44,569 nucleotides of DNA from Escherichia phage SECphi4. The notes beneath the pieces were generated by a model. That model was not told the DNA's origin. It did no database searches and saw only the letters and a program-made list of their open reading frames with translations. Positions 12,199 to 21,971 of this stretch are shown here, in pieces (positions within the stretch are counted from its first letter, which is position 1; each line of letters begins with the position of its first letter). Made by a program: the position numbers and the translations under genes. Location of the stretch: sequence record MT331608. One strand, written 5' to 3'.

Positions 12199-12528
12199 AT
12201 GAATATAAACGACGCAATCGAAATGTTAACTAAGACTGTTGGCAGTGAGACTAGCCGGTCCTGGGCCTATACCGATGCCGTGGGGGCTGTATTATTTGAA
12301 ATCGAACGTCTGCGACTTACCGAAAAAGAATTACGCGCGAAGCTGGAATTACTCAACGGTACGGCAGCCAGCAAGCTGCAAAAGCACAATGAGGAAATGG
12401 AAGAATATAAAAAACAGGTTATCCGTTTGCGCGCCGAGGGCAAATCCTGGGCGATGATTGCCGAGTTGACCGGAATTAATCAGAGCACAGTGCGCTCCTG
12501 GGTACGCAATAATAAAACTTCTAAGTAA
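12199..12528 (+). CDS. HTH DNA-binding protein (putative transcriptional regulator)
   Basis: 109 aa; C-terminal SWAMIAELTGINQSTVRSWV helix-turn-helix; GGAG SD. Confidence 0.55.
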   Translation: MNINDAIEMLTKTVGSETSRSWAYTDAVGAVLFEIERLRLTEKELRAKLELLNGTAASKLQKHNEEMEEYKKQVIRLRAEGKSWAMIAELTGINQSTVRSWVRNNKTSK

Positions 12529-12538
12529 GGCCGCGGCA

Positions 12539-14803
12539 ATGAGCTTAATTAAATTCGCTGTAACACGACCCGCTAAAAAAGGCGAAAAAGCCAGGGCGGA
12601 AAACTTCCAGATGACTACCGAAGAGTTTTTCGAATTTATCAATGATGCGAAAGAAATCTCCTCGGTGCATATCAACAAGACGGAAGATAAAGCCGAGTAT
12701 GCTCGCCGCAAGCGTAAGGCCGACGGCATCGTGGCGTATACCCGTGACGGCCTACGCCGCAAGACCAGTGCGGTGGACCGCTCGATCCTGTTCTTCGATA
12801 TCGACCGAACCAACACCCGCACCCTACGCCGCTGCCGTAAGGCGTTCATTGACGCGGGGCTGGAACACGTATTTCACACCACAACCGGCGACCGCCACCC
12901 GCTGAAAGGCGGCACGCGTTGCGCTCGATTCCTGGTACTCACTGACAAGCCTGTACCGGCTGAAGACCTGGGCCGCGTCCAGTATGCGCTATTACACCAA
13001 CTTGGTCTGTCAGATGTGGACTTCGACGATTGCACGAAAGACACAAACCGCCTGATGTACCTGCCACACCAGCAGTCTGTTATTAAGTGCCACTACGGCA
13101 AGCGCGCCCGTGTCCGTCGTCTGCTTCGCCTGGCTGACAAGCTGGGAGTTGAGAAGGAAGAAGTACGCCGCGAACTAACCCAGGGCGATGACGGCGTGGC
13201 GGACGGTATTCTGGATTGGTGCTTCCAGGCGGGATTCGAGGAGTTATCTTCCGGTCGCGGTTATGAAGTGCCGTGCCCGAACGAACATCTGCACAGCGGC
13301 GAAGGGTCGACGGCTATCATGGTCAAGGATGGCGAGATCCGTTTCAAGTGTATGCACACCGGCAACGAGTGTTGCTCGGAACTGAACAGACACCAGCACC
13401 TGGCGCTACGTCTTATTGGTATCCCGGACCACCTGAACGTCGAGCCACACAATATGTCCCGTAAGCAAATCGCCGCCACCCTTCCAGGTCTGGACGACGA
13501 AGAAGTCGAATCCTTATATGAACATATTGTTGATGCGGTCGGAGACGGCGACGAGTACGGCGTATGTACCGACGCTGACCTGGATAACGAACCGGTCGCA
13601 CTGTTCAGTAAGCACGACCCGATCATAGAAGGCCTGGTCAACTTCAAATCGACCTGGTATATGGCGGGTGAGTCGAATATCGGTAAGTCTTTCTACGTGC
13701 TGGGCCAGATGGGCGCGGTTGCCGCCGGTATTCCGTTTGGCGGTGCGAAGGTCGTACAGTCTCATTGCTTCTATTTCGACGCGGAAGGTGGCGAAGCCTC
13801 CAACCAGCGTAAAGAAGCATTGCAGATTAAATACGAGCACGACCTGGACAAGCTGCACATTATAGACCTGCAGTCACGCGGCTGGGATATCACCAGCAAA
13901 TCAGGCTTGCGCGAAGTTATCAGCTTTATCAACCGCACCGCTAACGGCGAACCGGTTGGCCTGGTGGCGTTCGACTCACTCAACCAGACTGTTGCGCTGC
14001 GGTCCGCCGATGCTAAACCGTTTGACGAGAACAACGCCAGCGATATGGGTGAAGTGGTCAAGGCGCTGAAGGCCATCGCGGAAAATACAGGTGGCAGTGC
14101 GGGCGTCATCCACCACCCGGCTAAAGGTGCAAACGGCAGCAGAACCCCACGCGGGTCCGGCGCGCTGCATGGTGCTGTCGATTCTGCGTTCTTCCTGGAA
14201 CAGCCGGACGACAACCAGCCCGGACAATTGAACCTGTATCATGAGAAGTCACGTAACGGCATCAAGCAAGCGCCGCGCGGCTTCGTCCTGCTCAAGTGCA
14301 AGGTGAAGGTGGATCTCCGCAAGTCAGAAGCGTTCGAGGCGCACCAGTCCAACAGCACCGGGCCAGACTTCGGCGATGTGGTTGCCGGATGGGACATCAA
14401 GCCGATTGCCTCCACGCCACGCGACGAGACTCTCTACCTCGTACCGGTTGCCCTGGCACCATTCGCTATTGAACAGGCGAAGGCGGCGGGCAAGGCCGCG
14501 GTTAAGGAAGAGAACACCGCCGGACCGCGCAACGAAAAAGAGAAAGTGCTTTATGCGGCACTGGAAAAACTGATGGAAGATAACCCGGACCATACTGGAT
14601 TCAGTAAATCGGCAATCGTCCGCCAGGCGGGACTCGCGAAAGGTGGAACTTCGACGAAGGCAATCGACGATATGGTGGCGCGCGGCGTGCTCGGTTTTTA
14701 TACAGACCCGCACACTGGGGCCATCTACGGGTCGTCGAATATCGTCATCAAAACGAACATACCCATCACGCTTTCGGCGACCGATGACGATTTAAAAGAT
14801 TAA
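12539..14803 (+). CDS. Primase-helicase (N-terminal primase-like domain, C-terminal RecA/DnaB-like ATPase)
   Basis: 754 aa; Walker A GESNIGKS in the C-terminal half. Confidence 0.7.
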   Translation: MSLIKFAVTRPAKKGEKARAENFQMTTEEFFEFINDAKEISSVHINKTEDKAEYARRKRKADGIVAYTRDGLRRKTSAVDRSILFFDIDRTNTRTLRRCRKAFIDAGLEHVFHTTTGDRHPLKGGTRCARFLVLTDKPVPAEDLGRVQYALLHQLGLSDVDFDDCTKDTNRLMYLPHQQSVIKCHYGKRARVRRLLRLADKLGVEKEEVRRELTQGDDGVADGILDWCFQAGFEELSSGRGYEVPCPNEHLHSGEGSTAIMVKDGEIRFKCMHTGNECCSELNRHQHLALRLIGIPDHLNVEPHNMSRKQIAATLPGLDDEEVESLYEHIVDAVGDGDEYGVCTDADLDNEPVALFSKHDPIIEGLVNFKSTWYMAGESNIGKSFYVLGQMGAVAAGIPFGGAKVVQSHCFYFDAEGGEASNQRKEALQIKYEHDLDKLHIIDLQSRGWDITSKSGLREVISFINRTANGEPVGLVAFDSLNQTVALRSADAKPFDENNASDMGEVVKALKAIAENTGGSAGVIHHPAKGANGSRTPRGSGALHGAVDSAFFLEQPDDNQPGQLNLYHEKSRNGIKQAPRGFVLLKCKVKVDLRKSEAFEAHQSNSTGPDFGDVVAGWDIKPIASTPRDETLYLVPVALAPFAIEQAKAAGKAAVKEENTAGPRNEKEKVLYAALEKLMEDNPDHTGFSKSAIVRQAGLAKGGTSTKAIDDMVARGVLGFYTDPHTGAIYGSSNIVIKTNIPITLSATDDDLKD

Positions 14804-14884
14804 ATTCTGCGCGCATTGGTTGCCGTTTTGAGTGTTTTTATCCGGTCGTATTGGTTGCCGTGTAGTGTAAATATAATGAATAGT

Positions 14885-15071
14885 TATGCAATAAAACTGC
14901 ATAAAGTAAGCGGGACAAAAAGCGGGACAAACAAGAGGCGGGACAAAGCGGGACAGCACCCCCGTCCCGCCCCGGATGACGCGGCCTGGATAGGAGCGGG
15001 ACAGGCGGGACAAACCCCAGTCTTTCAGACTAGACGGGGGTCAATGGCCCCCCTCGTCTGAGACTGAATAA
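14885..15071. repeat. Iteron element copy A: six or more GCGGGACA direct repeats plus a conserved imperfect palindrome
   Basis: Near-identical to 31562..31740, including a 55-bp identical block cccagtctttcagactagacgggggtcaatggcccccctcgtctgagactgaataa. Confidence 0.85.
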
Positions 15072-15226
15072 AATCCGGGGATTGCAAAATACACGGCAGC
15101 ATAATGCGAAGTGCGGTCGCGGATGAACTAGGCAACCAATGCGATTTGCATTATGCGAAGTGAAAAATGCAGTTTGCAGTTGCAGCAGATAGCGATCAAC
15201 TTTTTCATGCGCGTGATTAATATTGG

Positions 15227-15255
15227 TTGCATTCAACCCGGCGCCTTGCTATATT
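15227..15255 (+). promoter_or_regulatory. Sigma70-like promoter (TTGCAT-N17-TATATT) with ATTGGTTGCA copies at 15222 and 15253
   Basis: Same architecture as the minus-strand promoters; 21-bp block tatattggttgcacaccaaca is shared with the promoter at 25833. Confidence 0.5.
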
Positions 15256-15282
15256 GGTTGCACACCAACATGAGGGCGGAAC

Positions 15283-15462
15283 ATGAAAACCGAAATGGTT
15301 AATAAGCGCGAAATCAAGATCGGCGATACGGTAGTCCACAACGGGGAGCTTCGCACTGTGTGCAAGCGAGCGTTTAGCATCGATGAATTTATGGGCCTGC
15401 TACTTTGGGGCGACAGCTATCGTTTAGGGCATAAACTGGTTGAGAGGGTTACGGAACTATGA
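15283..15462 (+). CDS. Small hypothetical protein (59 aa)
   Basis: ATG with GAGGG SD; stop overlaps the next ATG; not in the ORF track because it is under 60 aa. Confidence 0.45.
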   Translation: MKTEMVNKREIKIGDTVVHNGELRTVCKRAFSIDEFMGLLLWGDSYRLGHKLVERVTEL

Positions 15463-19917: not shown

Positions 19918-19950
19918 GCCTCCCAGCCTGCCGATTTGGTGGGCTTTTTT
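19918..19950 (+). terminator. Probable rho-independent terminator
   Basis: Imperfect GC-rich hairpin followed by T6 just after the stop at 19904. Confidence 0.4.
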
Positions 19951-20034
19951 GTGCCTGTTATAATCCCCCTTAGATGGCAGGGCCGTCTCCTATGTTGCCG
20001 ATGGTCGGCGCATATGCACAAAAGGGCTTATATC

Positions 20035-20586
20035 ATGGCAGAAATTAAAGTTAAGGGCCGTCGCGCCAAACTGGACGGACGAGTAGCAGTTACCCCTCGC
20101 CGTAAACCAGGCGAGCAAACCGAACATACCAATCTCGGACCTGAGATCGAGTACGGCAAGCGCCGTAAAGGCGGCAAATGTGGGCGCCCTACTGACTACC
20201 GATCTGTTTACTGCGACCAGCTTCGTCGCTATTTTGCCGACGCCGACGCCTGGCAGGTCAATTACTCCGATAAAGGCGCTGCGCAGGTAATCCCTCGCAA
20301 CAAAATGCCAACCTTCGGCAGATTTGCCGCGGAAATCGGTGTGGGCGTCGCTTGCCTGTATCGCTGGGCGCGCGCACATGAGGAGTTCGCCGAGGCGATG
20401 GCGGACGCTATGGAATTGCAGAAAACTTTCCTGATGGAGGCTGGCGGCGTAACCATCGCGGCGGGCTTCGCTACGTTCCTGCTTAAAGCCAACCACGGCG
20501 TACGCGACGATATCCCACTGGATGACGACGAAGATGATAACGGCGACGTCGTTGTCGAACCTACCGGCAAAGGCCAGGGCGAATAA
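20035..20586 (+). CDS. Terminase small subunit
   Basis: 183 aa immediately upstream of TerL; HTH-like segment and acidic C-terminus; start set at the internal ATG (MAEIKVKG). Confidence 0.7.
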   Translation: MAEIKVKGRRAKLDGRVAVTPRRKPGEQTEHTNLGPEIEYGKRRKGGKCGRPTDYRSVYCDQLRRYFADADAWQVNYSDKGAAQVIPRNKMPTFGRFAAEIGVGVACLYRWARAHEEFAEAMADAMELQKTFLMEAGGVTIAAGFATFLLKANHGVRDDIPLDDDEDDNGDVVVEPTGKGQGE

Positions 20587-21971
20587 TGCGTAACTATGCG
20601 GCAGAACACCGCGCACTGGAACGCGCGATCGCAAAGCGCAACCGACCGCCACGCCCAACACGCGTTGCGCAGGCCGTCCGCCTTTACCAGCCTGATTGCT
20701 TGCCGCACCAGGTTGAACTACTGCGCGACACAAAGACTAAAATCCTCGGCCTGTGTTCCGGCTTCGGCGGCGGCAAGTCATGGGTTGCGGCGAGAAAGGT
20801 CATACAGCTTTTAACCCTGAACCCTGGTTATGACGGCATCGTGACCGAACCGACTATTCCACTCCTGGTTAAAATAATGTATCCGGAACTGGAGAAGGCA
20901 TTCGACGAGGCTGGATTCAGGTGGAAGTTCAATAAGCAGGACAAGATCTACAACGTGCTGGTGAAAGGCAAATGGACCCGCGTTATATGTGAATCAATGG
21001 AGAATTATACCCGCCTGATCGGGGTAAACGCCGCGTGGATTGTTGCCGATGAATTCGACACCACTAAGCAAGACGTCGCGCTGGCGGCATATCACAAATT
21101 GCTCGGTCGTCTGCGTGCGGGCTTTGTCCGCCAGTTCGTCATCGTGTCCACCCCGGAAGGCTACCGGGCGATGTACCAGATTTTCGAAGTGGAGAAGGAT
21201 AGCCAGAAACGTTTGATCCGGGCGAAGACTACCGATAACCACCACCTACCGGCAGACTTCATCGACACGCTGCGCCGCCAGTACCCGGCGAACCTGATTG
21301 ACGCGTACTTGAACGGCCTGTTTGTAAACCTTACGTCTGGCGCGGTTTACAAGATGTTCAATCGTGAGGAGAACGCCAGCACCGAAGAAGTGCAGCCGGA
21401 AGACACGCTGATTATCGGTATGGACTTTAACGTCACGAAGATGGCGGCGGTCGTGTACGTCAGACGGCAGCGCATCGCCGAAAACAAGGAGTTCCGCGAC
21501 GAGATCCACGCAGTGGATGAGTTTGTGGACCTGTTTGATACCCCGGCTATGATTGAGGCGATCGAGGAGCGATACCCAGATCATTGCGCTGCCGGTCGTG
21601 TTGTCGTGTACCCGGATAGCAGCGGCAAGTCTCGCAAGACTGTCAACGCATCATCGTCCGATATAGCGCAACTGGAAGACGCGGGCTTCGAGGTGGAGTA
21701 TGACAGTGTTAACCCACCTGTGAAAGACCGATTGATCGCGATGAATACGATGATGTGCAACTCGAAGGGCGTGCGCCAGTATTTTGTCAACCTGGATAAA
21801 TGCCCTACACTAGCGAAATGTCTGGAACAGCAGGTTTACGACCTGAAGAAAGGCGAGCCGGATAAAACCGCCGGGGCGGACCACATGAACGATGCCGCGG
21901 GCTATCCAATTGCGCACCTGTTCCCAGTGATTCGCCCAATCGCCGTTGTTCCAACTGTAGACTTCTACTAA
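20586..21971 (+). CDS. Terminase large subunit
   Basis: 461 aa with Walker A-like GFGGGKS; position upstream of the portal gene. Confidence 0.85.
   Translation: MRNYAAEHRALERAIAKRNRPPRPTRVAQAVRLYQPDCLPHQVELLRDTKTKILGLCSGFGGGKSWVAARKVIQLLTLNPGYDGIVTEPTIPLLVKIMYPELEKAFDEAGFRWKFNKQDKIYNVLVKGKWTRVICESMENYTRLIGVNAAWIVADEFDTTKQDVALAAYHKLLGRLRAGFVRQFVIVSTPEGYRAMYQIFEVEKDSQKRLIRAKTTDNHHLPADFIDTLRRQYPANLIDAYLNGLFVNLTSGAVYKMFNREENASTEEVQPEDTLIIGMDFNVTKMAAVVYVRRQRIAENKEFRDEIHAVDEFVDLFDTPAMIEAIEERYPDHCAAGRVVVYPDSSGKSRKTVNASSSDIAQLEDAGFEVEYDSVNPPVKDRLIAMNTMMCNSKGVRQYFVNLDKCPTLAKCLEQQVYDLKKGEPDKTAGADHMNDAAGYPIAHLFPVIRPIAVVPTVDFY

What the first reader, a model, noticed from the sequence alone, without database searches (positions are those of the whole stretch)
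14885..15071. Duplicated ~180-bp iteron element (GCGGGACA x6 plus conserved imperfect palindrome), copy A
The 8-mer GCGGGACA occurs as six or more direct repeats together with one inverted GTCCCGC copy, followed by a 55-bp block that is identical at the second site (31684..31740). That block folds as a long imperfect inverted repeat around a G5/C5 core. The element is non-coding, sits directly upstream of the plus-strand operon starting at 15283, and is flanked by further short repeats (GCATTATGCGAAGTG twice, ATTGGTTGC copies). Arrays of short direct repeats beside a structured palindrome are typical of protein-binding sites such as replication-origin iterons, terminase recognition sites or activator-dependent late promoters, but I cannot match this consensus to a known one. 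The HTH proteins at 12199 and 1637 are candidate binders.
Basis: seen in the sequence. Interest (0 to 1): 0.75.

Follow-up and report, generated by a model that had tools for sequence, protein, structure and literature searches.

The report
Duplicated phage replication-origin iteron array
The GCGGGACA repeats, with their AT-rich box and hairpin, lie just after the phage's helicase-primase gene and are most likely its replication origin, the landing pad for that enzyme's own DNA-binding tail; this phage genus carries a second copy in front of the tape-measure gene.

Summary
GCGGGACA occurs 14 times in the window against about 2 expected, and 12 of the 14 lie in two non-coding blocks (14866-15071 and 31425-31740). 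The blocks share about 200 bp, including an identical 56-bp hairpin.

The window is a Dhillonvirus, an E. coli siphophage. Copy A starts about 100 bp after the stop codon of a 754-aa protein built from an AEP primase, a zinc ribbon, a RepA-like AAA_25 helicase and a C-terminal winged helix.

Relatives of that protein (37-86% identity) have the same layout after their gene: AT-rich GAATAGTTATGCA box, 3-4 direct repeats, an inverted repeat, a spacer, 1-2 more repeats, a long hairpin, then an ACGGCARCA box. The repeat word changes by lineage: GGGGGAGA, CGGACAA, TCCGACA, AGGGATAA, TTGCGAGT.

In unrelated viral contigs, CGGGACA arrays start within -60 to +150 bp of the stop codon of AAA_25 helicase(-primase) genes in 27 of 30 cases. 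Others lie inside O-like initiator genes.

Best reading (about 0.7): an iteron-type replication origin bound by the adjacent self-loading helicase-primase, analogous to SaPI Rep/ori, P4 alpha ori/crr and pRN1. Copy B's role is open.

I also noticed an 8-mer, ACGGCARC, that is about 11-fold over-represented across the genome.

The parts
12539..14803 (+). Helicase-primase gene (754 aa), the proposed initiator. Domains: AEP PrimPol (about residues 1-205), Zn ribbon (C246-C279), AAA_25 RepA-like helicase (357-531) and a C-terminal winged helix (about 660-754).
14812..14861 (+). Two direct ATTGGTTGCCGT motifs to the left of origin copy A. Each contains ACGGCAAC on the minus strand (14819-14826, 14854-14861). 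They form an inverted pair with 15131-15143, so the motif brackets copy A.
14866..14909 (+). AT-rich box of copy A (up to 80% A+T). It contains TGAATA-GT-TATGCA-N7-TGCATAA. The GAATAGTTATGCA part is conserved in lineages that use a different repeat word. Proposed DNA-unwinding region.
14910..14955 (+). Four direct GCGGGACA iterons of copy A, starting at 14910, 14922, 14938 and 14948.
14964..14970 (-). Inverted iteron GTCCCGC, head-to-head with the fourth direct unit.
14971..14995 (.). Spacer of copy A. It is conserved among copy-A orthologues and differs from the copy-B spacer.
14996..15012 (+). Two further direct GCGGGACA iterons, at 14996 and 15005.
15018..15066 (.). Imperfect hairpin with a G5/C6 core. 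It lies in the 56-bp block (15016-15071) that is identical in copy B. Every lineage has a hairpin at this position although the sequences differ.
15093..15100 (+). ACGGCAGC box. It lies 15-45 bp after the hairpin in every lineage and is one instance of a genome-wide over-represented 8-mer.
31425..31535 (.). Left extension of copy B. It holds six more units in mixed orientation (31432+, 31439-, 31448-, 31502+, 31517-, 31527-) and an AT-rich stretch with two TGCATA boxes. The arm 31504-31535 is a 32-nt inverted repeat of 31604-31635.
31538..31577 (+). AT-rich box of copy B. It has iterons pointing in opposite directions on its two sides.
31578..31622 (+). Four direct GCGGGACA iterons of copy B, starting at 31578, 31590, 31605 and 31615.
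31631..31663 (-). Degenerate inverted unit (GTCCC, 31631-31635) followed by the copy-B spacer. The spacer carries CGGCAGC on the minus strand (31642-31648) and resembles the spacers of Kagunavirus-type relatives.
31664..31680 (+). Two further direct units of copy B: TCGGGACA and GCGGGACA.
31686..31734 (.). Hairpin of copy B, identical in sequence to the copy-A hairpin.
31772..31779 (+). ACGGCAAC box after the copy-B hairpin, 24 bp before the tape-measure start codon at 31803.

Best explanation
Both elements are iteron-type replication-origin modules. They serve the phage's own self-loading helicase-primase, encoded at 12539-14803.

Proposed mechanism:
1. The protein's C-terminal winged helix recognises the 8-bp GCGGGACA units on double-stranded DNA.
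2. Multiple bound protomers assemble the RepA-like helicase ring next to the AT-rich GAATAGTTATGCA box, which melts.
3. The structure-conserved hairpin and the neighbouring ACGGCARC boxes then act as the entry or priming zone for the N-terminal AEP primase.

Shown here: the anatomy of the element, its conserved position and order across lineages, the switch of repeat word between lineages, the domain folds of the protein, and the recurrent link between CGGGACA arrays and replication-initiator genes.

Inferred: that the winged helix is the binder, that the AT box melts, and that the hairpin and ACGGCARC guide priming.

Copy A is the ancestral origin position. Copy B is a second origin or an auxiliary initiator-binding site, comparable to P4 crr. 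It is present in all the 82-99% Dhillonvirus relatives examined.
For: Position. [quoted passage not shown]

Conserved architecture. The same ordered layout follows the orthologous gene in St162 and in IMG/VR loci at 37-86% protein identity. The repeat word is lineage-specific: GCGGGACA, aCGGGACA, GGGGGAGA, GGGGATGA, AGGGATAA, CGGACAA, TCCGACA, TTGCGAGT. Inverted copies are kept in each lineage. Sites of a diverging sequence-specific dsDNA binder would look like this.

Candidate binder. The least conserved part of the protein is its C-terminal domain. That domain folds as a winged helix. The start of its recognition helix has a different signature in each iteron class.

HTH excluded. The rival HTH protein is confined to the Dhillon group and diverges to 49% identity while the iteron stays the same.

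Independent recurrence. Triple CGGGACA arrays occur in more than 120 IMG/VR stretches, where my estimate of the chance number is about 4. I examined 83 non-Dhillon loci. In 30 of them my profile found an AAA_25 helicase(-primase) ORF, and in 27 of those the array starts within -60 to +150 bp of that ORF's stop, 24 on the same strand. Pfam added two more PrimPol+AAA_25 proteins and one DUF5906 protein. All ten tested ORFs that contain an array are O-like or DnaD-like replication initiators.

Other origin features. An AT-rich box of up to 80% A+T adjoins the iterons. In copy B a 32-nt inverted repeat places units in opposite orientation on the two sides of that box. Every lineage has a stable hairpin at the same place with unrelated sequence (-21 to -43 kcal/mol; window z = -3.7).

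Precedents. SaPI Rep uses a C-terminal winged helix to bind 6-12 short iterons immediately downstream of rep, around an AT-rich centre (PMC9371898). The pRN1 origin is a structure-conserved stem-loop downstream of the gene for an AEP+helicase+winged-helix protein (PMC4234260).
Against: No binding or replication data exist. Everything rests on anatomy and comparative association.

The match between winged-helix signature and iteron word is confounded by phylogeny. A direct test failed: distant helicases that sit next to CGGGACA arrays do not resemble the window's recognition helix more than close relatives with other iterons do (median local score 18.5 against 30). One distant protein, in L089, did.

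Copy A has no iterons on the left side of its AT-rich box, unlike SaPI origins.

GC skew turns at about 12 kb together with the switch in gene orientation, so it gives no independent support.

One sub-lineage of relatives (L029-L032, L035, L038) has ordinary terminators and no array after the gene. The position is therefore not universal.

A second complete origin between the tail chaperone genes and the tape-measure gene is an odd place for an origin. T1 has an annotated terminator at the equivalent junction.
Confidence: 0.7

Rival explanations
1. The elements are transcriptional control regions between operons. The hairpin ends the upstream transcript, and the repeats are binding sites for an activator or repressor that controls the downstream promoter. 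Copy A would control the operon starting at 15283, and copy B the tape-measure and tail genes.
For: Both copies lie between plus-strand gene blocks. Promoter-like sequence follows each, judged by eye: TTGCAT-N17-TATATT at 15227-15255 and TGATACAAT at 31758-31766. In several Kagunavirus-type lineages the hairpin is followed by a T-rich TTATTCATT stretch. T1 has an annotated terminator at the junction before its tape-measure gene.
Against: The consensus scans find no promoter or terminator in either element. The Dhillonvirus hairpin is followed by A-rich sequence, not T-rich. The distance from the last repeat to the promoter-like sequence is about 215 bp in A and about 77 bp in B, so the geometry is not consistent. 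The repeat word does not track the HTH regulator. In unrelated contigs the arrays track helicase and initiator genes, including positions inside initiator ORFs. The two functions could coexist: the hairpin could also terminate transcription.
Confidence: 0.12
2. The element encodes a structured non-coding RNA or a 3'-UTR element. The repeated G-rich units would bind an RNA-binding protein, and the hairpin would stabilise the RNA.
For: The hairpin structure is conserved while its sequence turns over completely. The 180-nt region folds somewhat better than shuffles (z = -2.5). No terminator separates it from the helicase-primase gene, so it is probably transcribed.
Against: Rfam gives no match at gathering score. 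At permissive thresholds only spurious eukaryotic miRNA-hairpin hits far below cut-off appear. Inverted copies of the unit are conserved in every lineage, which makes sense for dsDNA sites but not for an RNA-binding motif. The same word occurs inside coding initiator genes elsewhere. No promoter-like site precedes the array.
Confidence: 0.05
3. The arrays are terminase (pac) recognition sites or another packaging signal.
For: Arrays of short direct repeats are known TerS binding sites in some pac phages, such as SPP1 (my own knowledge, not tested here).
Against: The terminase genes lie at 19936-21971, about 5 kb from copy A and about 10 kb from copy B. Relatives have a single array, always next to the helicase-primase gene. 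The association across contigs is with replication genes.
Confidence: 0.03
4. Copy B is not an independent origin. It would be a regulatory or auxiliary initiator-binding site: a P4 crr-like enhancer, a handcuffing or titration site, or a protein roadblock that lowers tape-measure gene transcription. Only copy A would fire.
For: Kagunavirus-type relatives have only one array (St162), and so, apparently, does the 68% lineage: three pattern scans each found one place in contig 050407. A second copy is therefore not needed for the mechanism. P4 uses two iteron regions, ori and crr (my own knowledge).
Against: Copy B is the more complete of the two by origin criteria. It has units on both sides of the AT box, a Kagunavirus-like spacer and the ACGGCAAC box. 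It is conserved in all the 82-99% Dhillonvirus relatives examined.
Confidence: 0.1

Closest known systems
SaPI Rep / ori (self-loading helicases of Staphylococcus aureus pathogenicity islands)
   Same: The helicase is also the initiator, through a C-terminal winged helix. Six to twelve short iterons lie immediately downstream of the helicase ORF next to an AT-rich region, with units in opposite orientation on the two sides (PMC9371898). In SaPI5 the primase is fused to Rep.
   Different: SaPI Rep is described as an MCM-like AAA+ helicase. The protein here has a RecA-type AAA_25 (RepA-like) domain, and no sequence homology was detected. The units here are 8 bp rather than 5-6. A conserved hairpin and ACGGCARC boxes are added. 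Copy A has no left-hand units. The module is duplicated 16.7 kb away.
Satellite phage P4 alpha protein with ori and crr
   Same: One polypeptide combines primase, helicase and a C-terminal winged-helix origin-binding domain. It recognises an octamer repeated in direct and inverted orientation in two separate cis regions (my own knowledge of P4).
   Different: The primase and helicase families differ: alpha has an SF3 helicase, and no D5/SF3 family matched here. The P4 octamer is TGTTCACC. The distance between the two sites is 4.5 kb in P4 and 16.7 kb here. Whether both sites are required here is unknown.
pRN1 ORF904 origin (and Bordetella phage BIP-1)
   Same: The replication protein combines an AEP prim-pol domain, a helicase and a winged helix. 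The origin lies downstream of its own gene and contains a stem-loop whose structure is conserved while its sequence is not (PMC4234260).
   Different: ORF904 has an SF3 helicase. The pRN1 origin is a 100-nt stem-loop with no iteron array. The hairpin here is about 50 nt and is preceded by 7-12 iterons.
RSF1010/IncQ oriV with RepA, RepB' and RepC
   Different: IncQ uses three separate proteins, and its 20-bp iterons are bound by RepC. Here a single fused protein is proposed to bind 8-bp units. There is one palindromic hairpin instead of two ssi sites. The IncQ details are from my own knowledge.
Lambda O / ori-lambda
   Same: Arrays of initiator-binding repeats lie next to an AT-rich region. In other viral contigs the same CGGGACA word lies inside O-like initiator genes next to DnaB-type helicase genes, as in lambda.
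   Different: In the window the array is intergenic. No O-like or P-like genes are involved, and the helicase is phage-encoded and presumably self-loading.

Membership tests
Iteron origin of a self-loading helicase with C-terminal winged helix (SaPI Rep/ori type) | Six to twelve short repeats immediately downstream of the helicase ORF | tested here: met
   Copy A has seven units between 14910 and 15012, and the gene's stop codon ends at 14803. Relatives have the same arrangement. In 27 of 30 unrelated contigs the array starts within -60 to +150 bp of the helicase gene's stop.
Iteron origin of a self-loading helicase with C-terminal winged helix (SaPI Rep/ori type) | AT-rich region with iterons on both sides pointing in opposite directions | tested here: inconclusive
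   Copy B meets this: the inverted arms 31504-31535 and 31604-31635 flank the AT box at 31538-31577. Copy A has the AT box at 14866-14909 but no GCGGGACA unit to its left.
Iteron origin of a self-loading helicase with C-terminal winged helix (SaPI Rep/ori type) | Helicase carries a C-terminal winged-helix domain | tested here: met
Iteron origin of a self-loading helicase with C-terminal winged helix (SaPI Rep/ori type) | The winged helix binds the iterons specifically, and the region supports replication | not testable with these tools
   This needs EMSA or footprinting and origin-function assays. The only indirect support is that each iteron class has its own recognition-helix signature. A broader similarity test was negative.
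Iteron origin of a self-loading helicase with C-terminal winged helix (SaPI Rep/ori type) | Helicase belongs to the SaPI Rep (MCM-like AAA+) protein family | tested here: not met
   Pfam finds only AAA_25, a RecA-type RepA-like domain. The weak PDB sequence hit is to RSF1010 RepA. The resemblance to SaPI Rep is therefore in how it works, not in protein family.
P4 alpha ori/crr system | Octamer iterons in two separate cis regions, recognised by a primase-helicase-winged-helix polypeptide | tested here: met
   There are two arrays of an 8-mer 16.7 kb apart, and the protein has primase, helicase and winged-helix domains. This is met at the level of architecture only.
P4 alpha ori/crr system | Homology to alpha (its primase and SF3 helicase), and a requirement for both sites | tested here: not met
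   No D5/SF3 or P4-type primase family matched. The primase has the AEP fold. Whether both sites are required cannot be tested here.
pRN1 ORF904-type origin | Stem-loop downstream of the replication gene, conserved in structure but not in sequence | tested here: met
   Twelve sequences, covering both window copies and relatives from all seven iteron classes, each fold into a long imperfect hairpin at the same position (-21 to -43 kcal/mol) with unrelated stem sequences. The window hairpin has z = -3.7.
pRN1 ORF904-type origin | Replication protein with AEP prim-pol domain, SF3 helicase and winged helix | tested here: not met
   The AEP domain and the winged helix are present. The helicase is AAA_25, not SF3.
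IncQ (RSF1010) oriV | Iterons bound by a separate RepC, plus two ssi hairpins on opposite strands primed by RepB' | tested here: not met
Intrinsic (rho-independent) terminator | GC-rich stem-loop followed directly by a T run | tested here: not met
   The scan finds no terminator in either element. The hairpin is followed by GAATAAAATCC in copy A and GAATAAGGTTTG in copy B.
Known RNA families (Rfam 15) | Match at the family's gathering score | tested here: not met
   There are no matches at gathering score in the whole window. At E <= 1 only miRNA-precursor hits of 20-27 bits appear, against cut-offs of 77-100.

The most novel reading that the evidence does not exclude
The origin module may carry a sequence-specific priming code. 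The 8-mer ACGGCARC follows the hairpin in every lineage. In copy B and in most Kagunavirus-type relatives, its CGGCARC core (7 of the 8 bases) lies on the opposite strand just before the hairpin. The word is also scattered about every 800 bp through the genome: 54 sites against about 5 expected, 38:6 in favour of the plus strand in the right arm, and retained in diverged relatives 1.6-4 times more often than control 8-mers.

On this reading ACGGCARC is the template signal recognised by the fused AEP primase. The convergent pair at the origin would set the two leading-strand starts, and the dispersed copies would be lagging-strand priming sites. The second origin copy would then let Dhillonviruses fire from two places. 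An 8-bp primase recognition word would be unusually long compared with the 3-nt sites of the T7, T4, DnaG and pRN1 primases.
Probability: 0.15. Interest if true: 0.8.

Novelty: new member of a known kind. Interest (0 to 1): 0.5.

Why it matters
Dhillonviruses and Kagunaviruses are common E. coli and Salmonella siphophages. They are used in model collections such as BASEL and in therapy work. I found no description of their replication origin in the searchable literature.

This analysis gives testable origin candidates with a named initiator domain.

It also gives a simple annotation rule that held in 27 of 30 unrelated viral contigs: look for a short-repeat array at the 3' end of the AAA_25 helicase(-primase) gene.

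It shows that the same short word, CGGGACA, is used as an iteron by at least two different initiator architectures.

It flags a 61-aa 'hypothetical protein' in several GenBank records as a likely mis-annotation.

The duplicated origin and the genome-wide ACGGCARC word would make this phage group a good system for studying how a fused primase-helicase-initiator chooses its start sites.

Tried and rejected
- GC skew. It changes sign at about 12 kb, exactly where gene orientation switches, so it is confounded and gives nothing on the origin.
- Host-factor sites. There are no DnaA boxes (TTWTNCACA) within copy A's origin module or anywhere in copy B. The only match at up to one mismatch is a one-mismatch site at 15159, between the module and the 15283 operon. 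There are no IHF sites (WATCAANNNNTTR) at up to one mismatch in either region.
- Promoter and terminator consensus scans. No promoter-like site in either region, and the single terminator-like site lies inside the helicase-primase gene (14677-14691), not in either element.
- Rfam. Nothing at gathering score or at permissive thresholds.
- tRNA and tmRNA. None.
- Protein-coding reading of the 61-aa ORF. Rejected.
- The 109-aa HTH protein as binder. Rejected on distribution and divergence.
- Whether distant helicases next to CGGGACA arrays share the window's recognition helix. Negative overall; one case, L089, was positive. There is no detectable similarity to the O-like initiators.
- Copy B in the 68% lineage. 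A search with the tape-measure protein returned only closer and unrelated contigs. The statement that this lineage has a single array rests on three DNA pattern scans, each finding one place in contig 050407.
- Literature. Searches for the 8-mer, for Dhillonvirus promoters or origins, for HK578 repeats and for Kagunavirus/Jerseyvirus iterons found nothing on this element.
- E. coli Chi. It is not enriched, with 4 copies, so ACGGCARC is not Chi.

Full report
**What is there**

The window is a complete or near-complete Dhillonvirus genome, an E. coli siphophage. The 491 bp around the finding match 158 phage records, almost all Escherichia phages at 80-95% identity, and most of the listed records hold two matching places.

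GCGGGACA occurs 14 times in the window. Shuffles give a mean of 1.9 and a maximum of 5. Twelve of the 14 copies lie in two intergenic blocks.

Copy A has six direct units (14910-15012) and one inverted GTCCCGC (14964-14970). Copy B has five exact direct units, one 7/8 unit and a degenerate inverted unit (31578-31680), plus six further units in mixed orientation between 31432 and 31532.

The copies align over about 200 bp. Their internal spacers differ. A 56-bp block is identical (15016-15071 = 31684-31739). It folds as an imperfect hairpin: -13.4 kcal/mol as DNA, z = -3.7.

**The element is not a gene**

Some GenBank records annotate a small hypothetical protein across copy A. The 61-aa frame is cut to 6 and 37 codons in two orthologues, runs on to 78 aa with a different C-terminus in a third, and has no start motif in a fourth. 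It alternates between ATG and GTG starts. Its invariant residues are simply the repeat units.

**Genomic context**

Copy A begins about 100 bp after the stop codon of a 754-aa protein (12539-14803). PHROGs calls this protein a replicative helicase-primase, and Pfam finds a central AAA_25 (RepA-like) domain.

- This C-terminal domain is the least conserved part of the protein among homologues.

Copy B fills the 384-bp gap between the tail-chaperone-position genes and the tape-measure gene.

**Comparative evidence from relatives**

Salmonella phage St162 is a Kagunavirus whose helicase-primase is 43% identical. It has the same ordered architecture right after its gene, but the repeat is GGGGGAGA. 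St162 has only one array.

Forty-one IMG/VR loci encoding relatives at 98% to 37% identity extend this. The order after the stop codon is:
1. One or two repeats.
2. A conserved AT-rich box, GAATAGTTATGCA...GTGAATA.
3. Three or four direct repeats.
4. One or two inverted repeats.
5. A 25-30 bp spacer.
6. One or two more direct repeats.
7. A long imperfect hairpin.
8. A TTATTCAnTTATGCA box, in the Kagunavirus-type lineages.
9. An ACGGCARCA box.

The repeat word differs by lineage: GCGGGACA, aCGGGACA, GGGGGAGA, GGGGATGA, AGGGATAA, CGGACAA, TCCGACA and TTGCGAGT.

The hairpin is present in all of them (-21 to -43 kcal/mol), but its stems have unrelated sequences.

Each iteron class goes with its own signature at the start of the winged helix's recognition helix:

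| Recognition-helix start | Iteron word |
|---|---|
| KGGT-STK | GCGGGACA |
| KGGD-RYK | GGGGGAGA |
| DGGR-RRP | TCCGACA |
| GGGNxRRR | CGGACAA |

This correspondence is confounded by shared descent, so it is only suggestive.

It falls to 78% and 49% identity in phages whose iterons are unchanged.

One sub-lineage of relatives has plain terminators and no array after the gene.

**Independent recurrence in unrelated contigs**

Pattern scans of IMG/VR show that CGGGACA arrays are common outside this phage group. More than 120 stretches carry three units in a row, where I estimate about 4 by chance.

I examined 83 non-Dhillon loci:
- In 30 of them my profile found an AAA_25 helicase(-primase) ORF.
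- In 27 of those 30 the array starts within -60 to +150 bp of that ORF's stop codon, and 24 of the 27 are on the same strand.
- Pfam adds two PrimPol+AAA_25 proteins and one DUF5906 (SF3-type) protein with the same arrangement.
- Many of the remaining arrays lie inside 216-335-aa ORFs. All ten that I tested belong to O-like or DnaD-like replication-initiator families. One of them lies next to a DnaB gene. This mirrors lambda, where the iterons lie inside the O gene.

The word is thus repeatedly tied to replication initiators of two architectures. This is the strongest argument that the window's repeats are iterons.

**Mechanism**

The best-supported reading is an iteron-type origin for a self-loading helicase-primase:
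- The winged helix binds the 8-bp units on duplex DNA.
- The helicase assembles next to the AT-rich box.
- The hairpin and flanking boxes serve as the entry or priming zone for the AEP domain.

All of these steps are inferred. What is shown is the anatomy, its conservation, the lineage-specific change of repeat word, the protein folds and the gene association.

The published precedents are close:
- SaPI Rep helicases use a C-terminal winged helix to bind 6-12 short iterons immediately downstream of rep, around an AT-rich centre with units in opposite orientation (PMC9371898).
- The pRN1 origin is a structure-conserved stem-loop downstream of the gene for an AEP+helicase+winged-helix protein (PMC4234260).
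- P4 alpha with ori and crr, and RSF1010 oriV with RepA, RepB' and RepC, are further analogues (my own knowledge for their details).

The protein here belongs to neither the SaPI Rep family nor the SF3 family, because its helicase is AAA_25. It works like these systems but is not a member of them.

**Copy B**

Copy B is conserved in all the 82-99% Dhillonvirus relatives examined. Its spacer is orthologous among them and distinct from the copy-A spacer. The duplication is therefore old and has not been homogenised.

Copy B is the more origin-like of the two. A 32-nt inverted repeat places units in opposite orientation on the two sides of its AT-rich box. Its spacer resembles the Kagunavirus-type spacers.

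The 68% lineage and St162 appear to have one array only.

Whether copy B is a second origin, a crr-like auxiliary site, or a roadblock or attenuator in front of the tape-measure gene cannot be decided here. T1 has an annotated terminator at the equivalent junction.

**Rival explanations**

- Terminator plus activator sites. This gets no support from the consensus scans, has inconsistent geometry, and does not explain the association with initiator genes. The hairpin could still terminate transcription as a second function.
- RNA element. This is disfavoured by the conserved inverted units, the lack of a promoter, and the absence of any Rfam match.
- Packaging site. This is disfavoured by the distance from the terminase genes.

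**Negative and inconclusive results**

- GC skew is confounded by gene orientation.
- The only DnaA-box match is a one-mismatch site at 15159, outside the origin module, and no IHF consensus sites are present.
- Distant helicases that sit next to CGGGACA arrays do not, as a group, share the window's recognition helix. One does.

**Side finding**

ACGGCARC, the box that follows the hairpin in every lineage, is over-represented across the genome:
- It occurs 54 times against 4.7 expected.
- It has no flanking consensus.
- It falls in several codon phases, and 9 sites lie outside my gene map.
- It is strand-biased, 38:6 in the right arm.
- Its density is 6-12 per 10 kb in this whole phage group. 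Lambda has 0.6, T1 has 2.0 and unrelated loci have 1.6.
- Diverged relatives retain the sites more often than control 8-mers: 11 of 16 against 24.5%, 5 of 12 against 10.7%, and 13 of 15 against 55%.

In copy B and in most Kagunavirus-type relatives, the CGGCARC core of the word (7 of its 8 bases) lies on the opposite strand just before the hairpin. The two would form a convergent pair around it. A primase recognition signal is an attractive idea but is untested.

**Verdict**

This is a new, undescribed member of a known kind of system, with an unusual conserved duplication. Interest is moderate.

Noticed in passing
window, genome-wide (e.g. 15093, 31772, 14819-, 14854-; 54 sites): The 8-mer ACGGCARC occurs 54 times against 4.7 expected. 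It is strand-biased (39 plus, 15 minus; 38:6 in the right arm), has no flanking consensus, and falls in several codon phases and outside my gene map. Its density is 6-12 per 10 kb across all phages that share this helicase-primase, against 0.6 in lambda and 2.0 in T1. Diverged relatives retain the sites 1.6-4 times more often than control 8-mers. It always follows the origin hairpin. It may be a primase or other replication signal.
   Followed up: partly
window 499, 2392, 2409, 5351, 12002, 14815, 14850, 15132, 15222, 15253, 15983, 18591, 25826, 25840, 36474, 41942: ATTGGTTGC occurs 16 times, several at intergenic positions, sometimes as close pairs. At 15222-15261 it overlaps a promoter-like TTGCAT-N17-TATATT. 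An inverted pair (14812-14824 and 15131-15143) brackets origin copy A. Kagunavirus-type relatives have an analogous motif, ATGTTGGCTG, in the same places. It is probably the operator or promoter motif of a phage regulator and is separate from the iterons.
   Followed up: partly
IMG/VR loci L076-L090 and L167-L240: CGGGACA is a widespread iteron word. More than 120 viral-contig stretches carry three or more units. They lie either just 3' of AAA_25 or PrimPol helicase genes, or inside O-like/DnaD-like initiator genes. Why very different initiators share one word is unexplained.
   Followed up: partly
window 31779-31805: Two direct CTGCATAA boxes flank the ribosome-binding site of the tape-measure gene, and the second overlaps its ATG (CTGCATAAAAAGGGGGACTGCATAATG). 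TGCATA and TGAATA hexamers also build the AT-rich boxes of both origin copies (TGAATA-GT-TATGCA-N7-TGCATAA). They may be binding sites for a conserved factor or a translational control element.
   Followed up: no
window 14878-15063; GenBank MZ501107 bas14_0052 and others: Several deposited Dhillonvirus genomes annotate a hypothetical protein across the iteron array. The 61-aa frame is truncated in two orthologues, extended and altered in a third, and has no start motif in a fourth, so it is most likely a mis-annotation.
   Followed up: yes
L029-L032, L035, L038 (downstream of the helicase-primase gene): One sub-lineage of helicase-primase relatives (42-44% identity; winged helix starts PGGG-RRPALKAL) has two ordinary terminator hairpins and opposite-strand sequence after the gene, and no repeat array. 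Its origin must lie elsewhere and was not located.
   Followed up: no
L033, L042, L045, L040, L036 (origin hairpins): In several Kagunavirus-type lineages the loop of the origin hairpin carries an inverted copy of that lineage's iteron, for example TGTCGGA in the TCCGACA lineage. In L036 iteron-like ACGGACGGAC sequence forms the outer stem. The Dhillonvirus hairpin has no unit in its loop.
   Followed up: no
window 15099-15113 and 15149-15163: GCATAATGCGAAGTG and GCATTATGCGAAGTG form a direct repeat with one mismatch, between the origin hairpin and the downstream promoter-like region. The pair also registers as a partial inverted repeat (15099-15110 and 15145-15156). Its function is unknown.
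   Followed up: no
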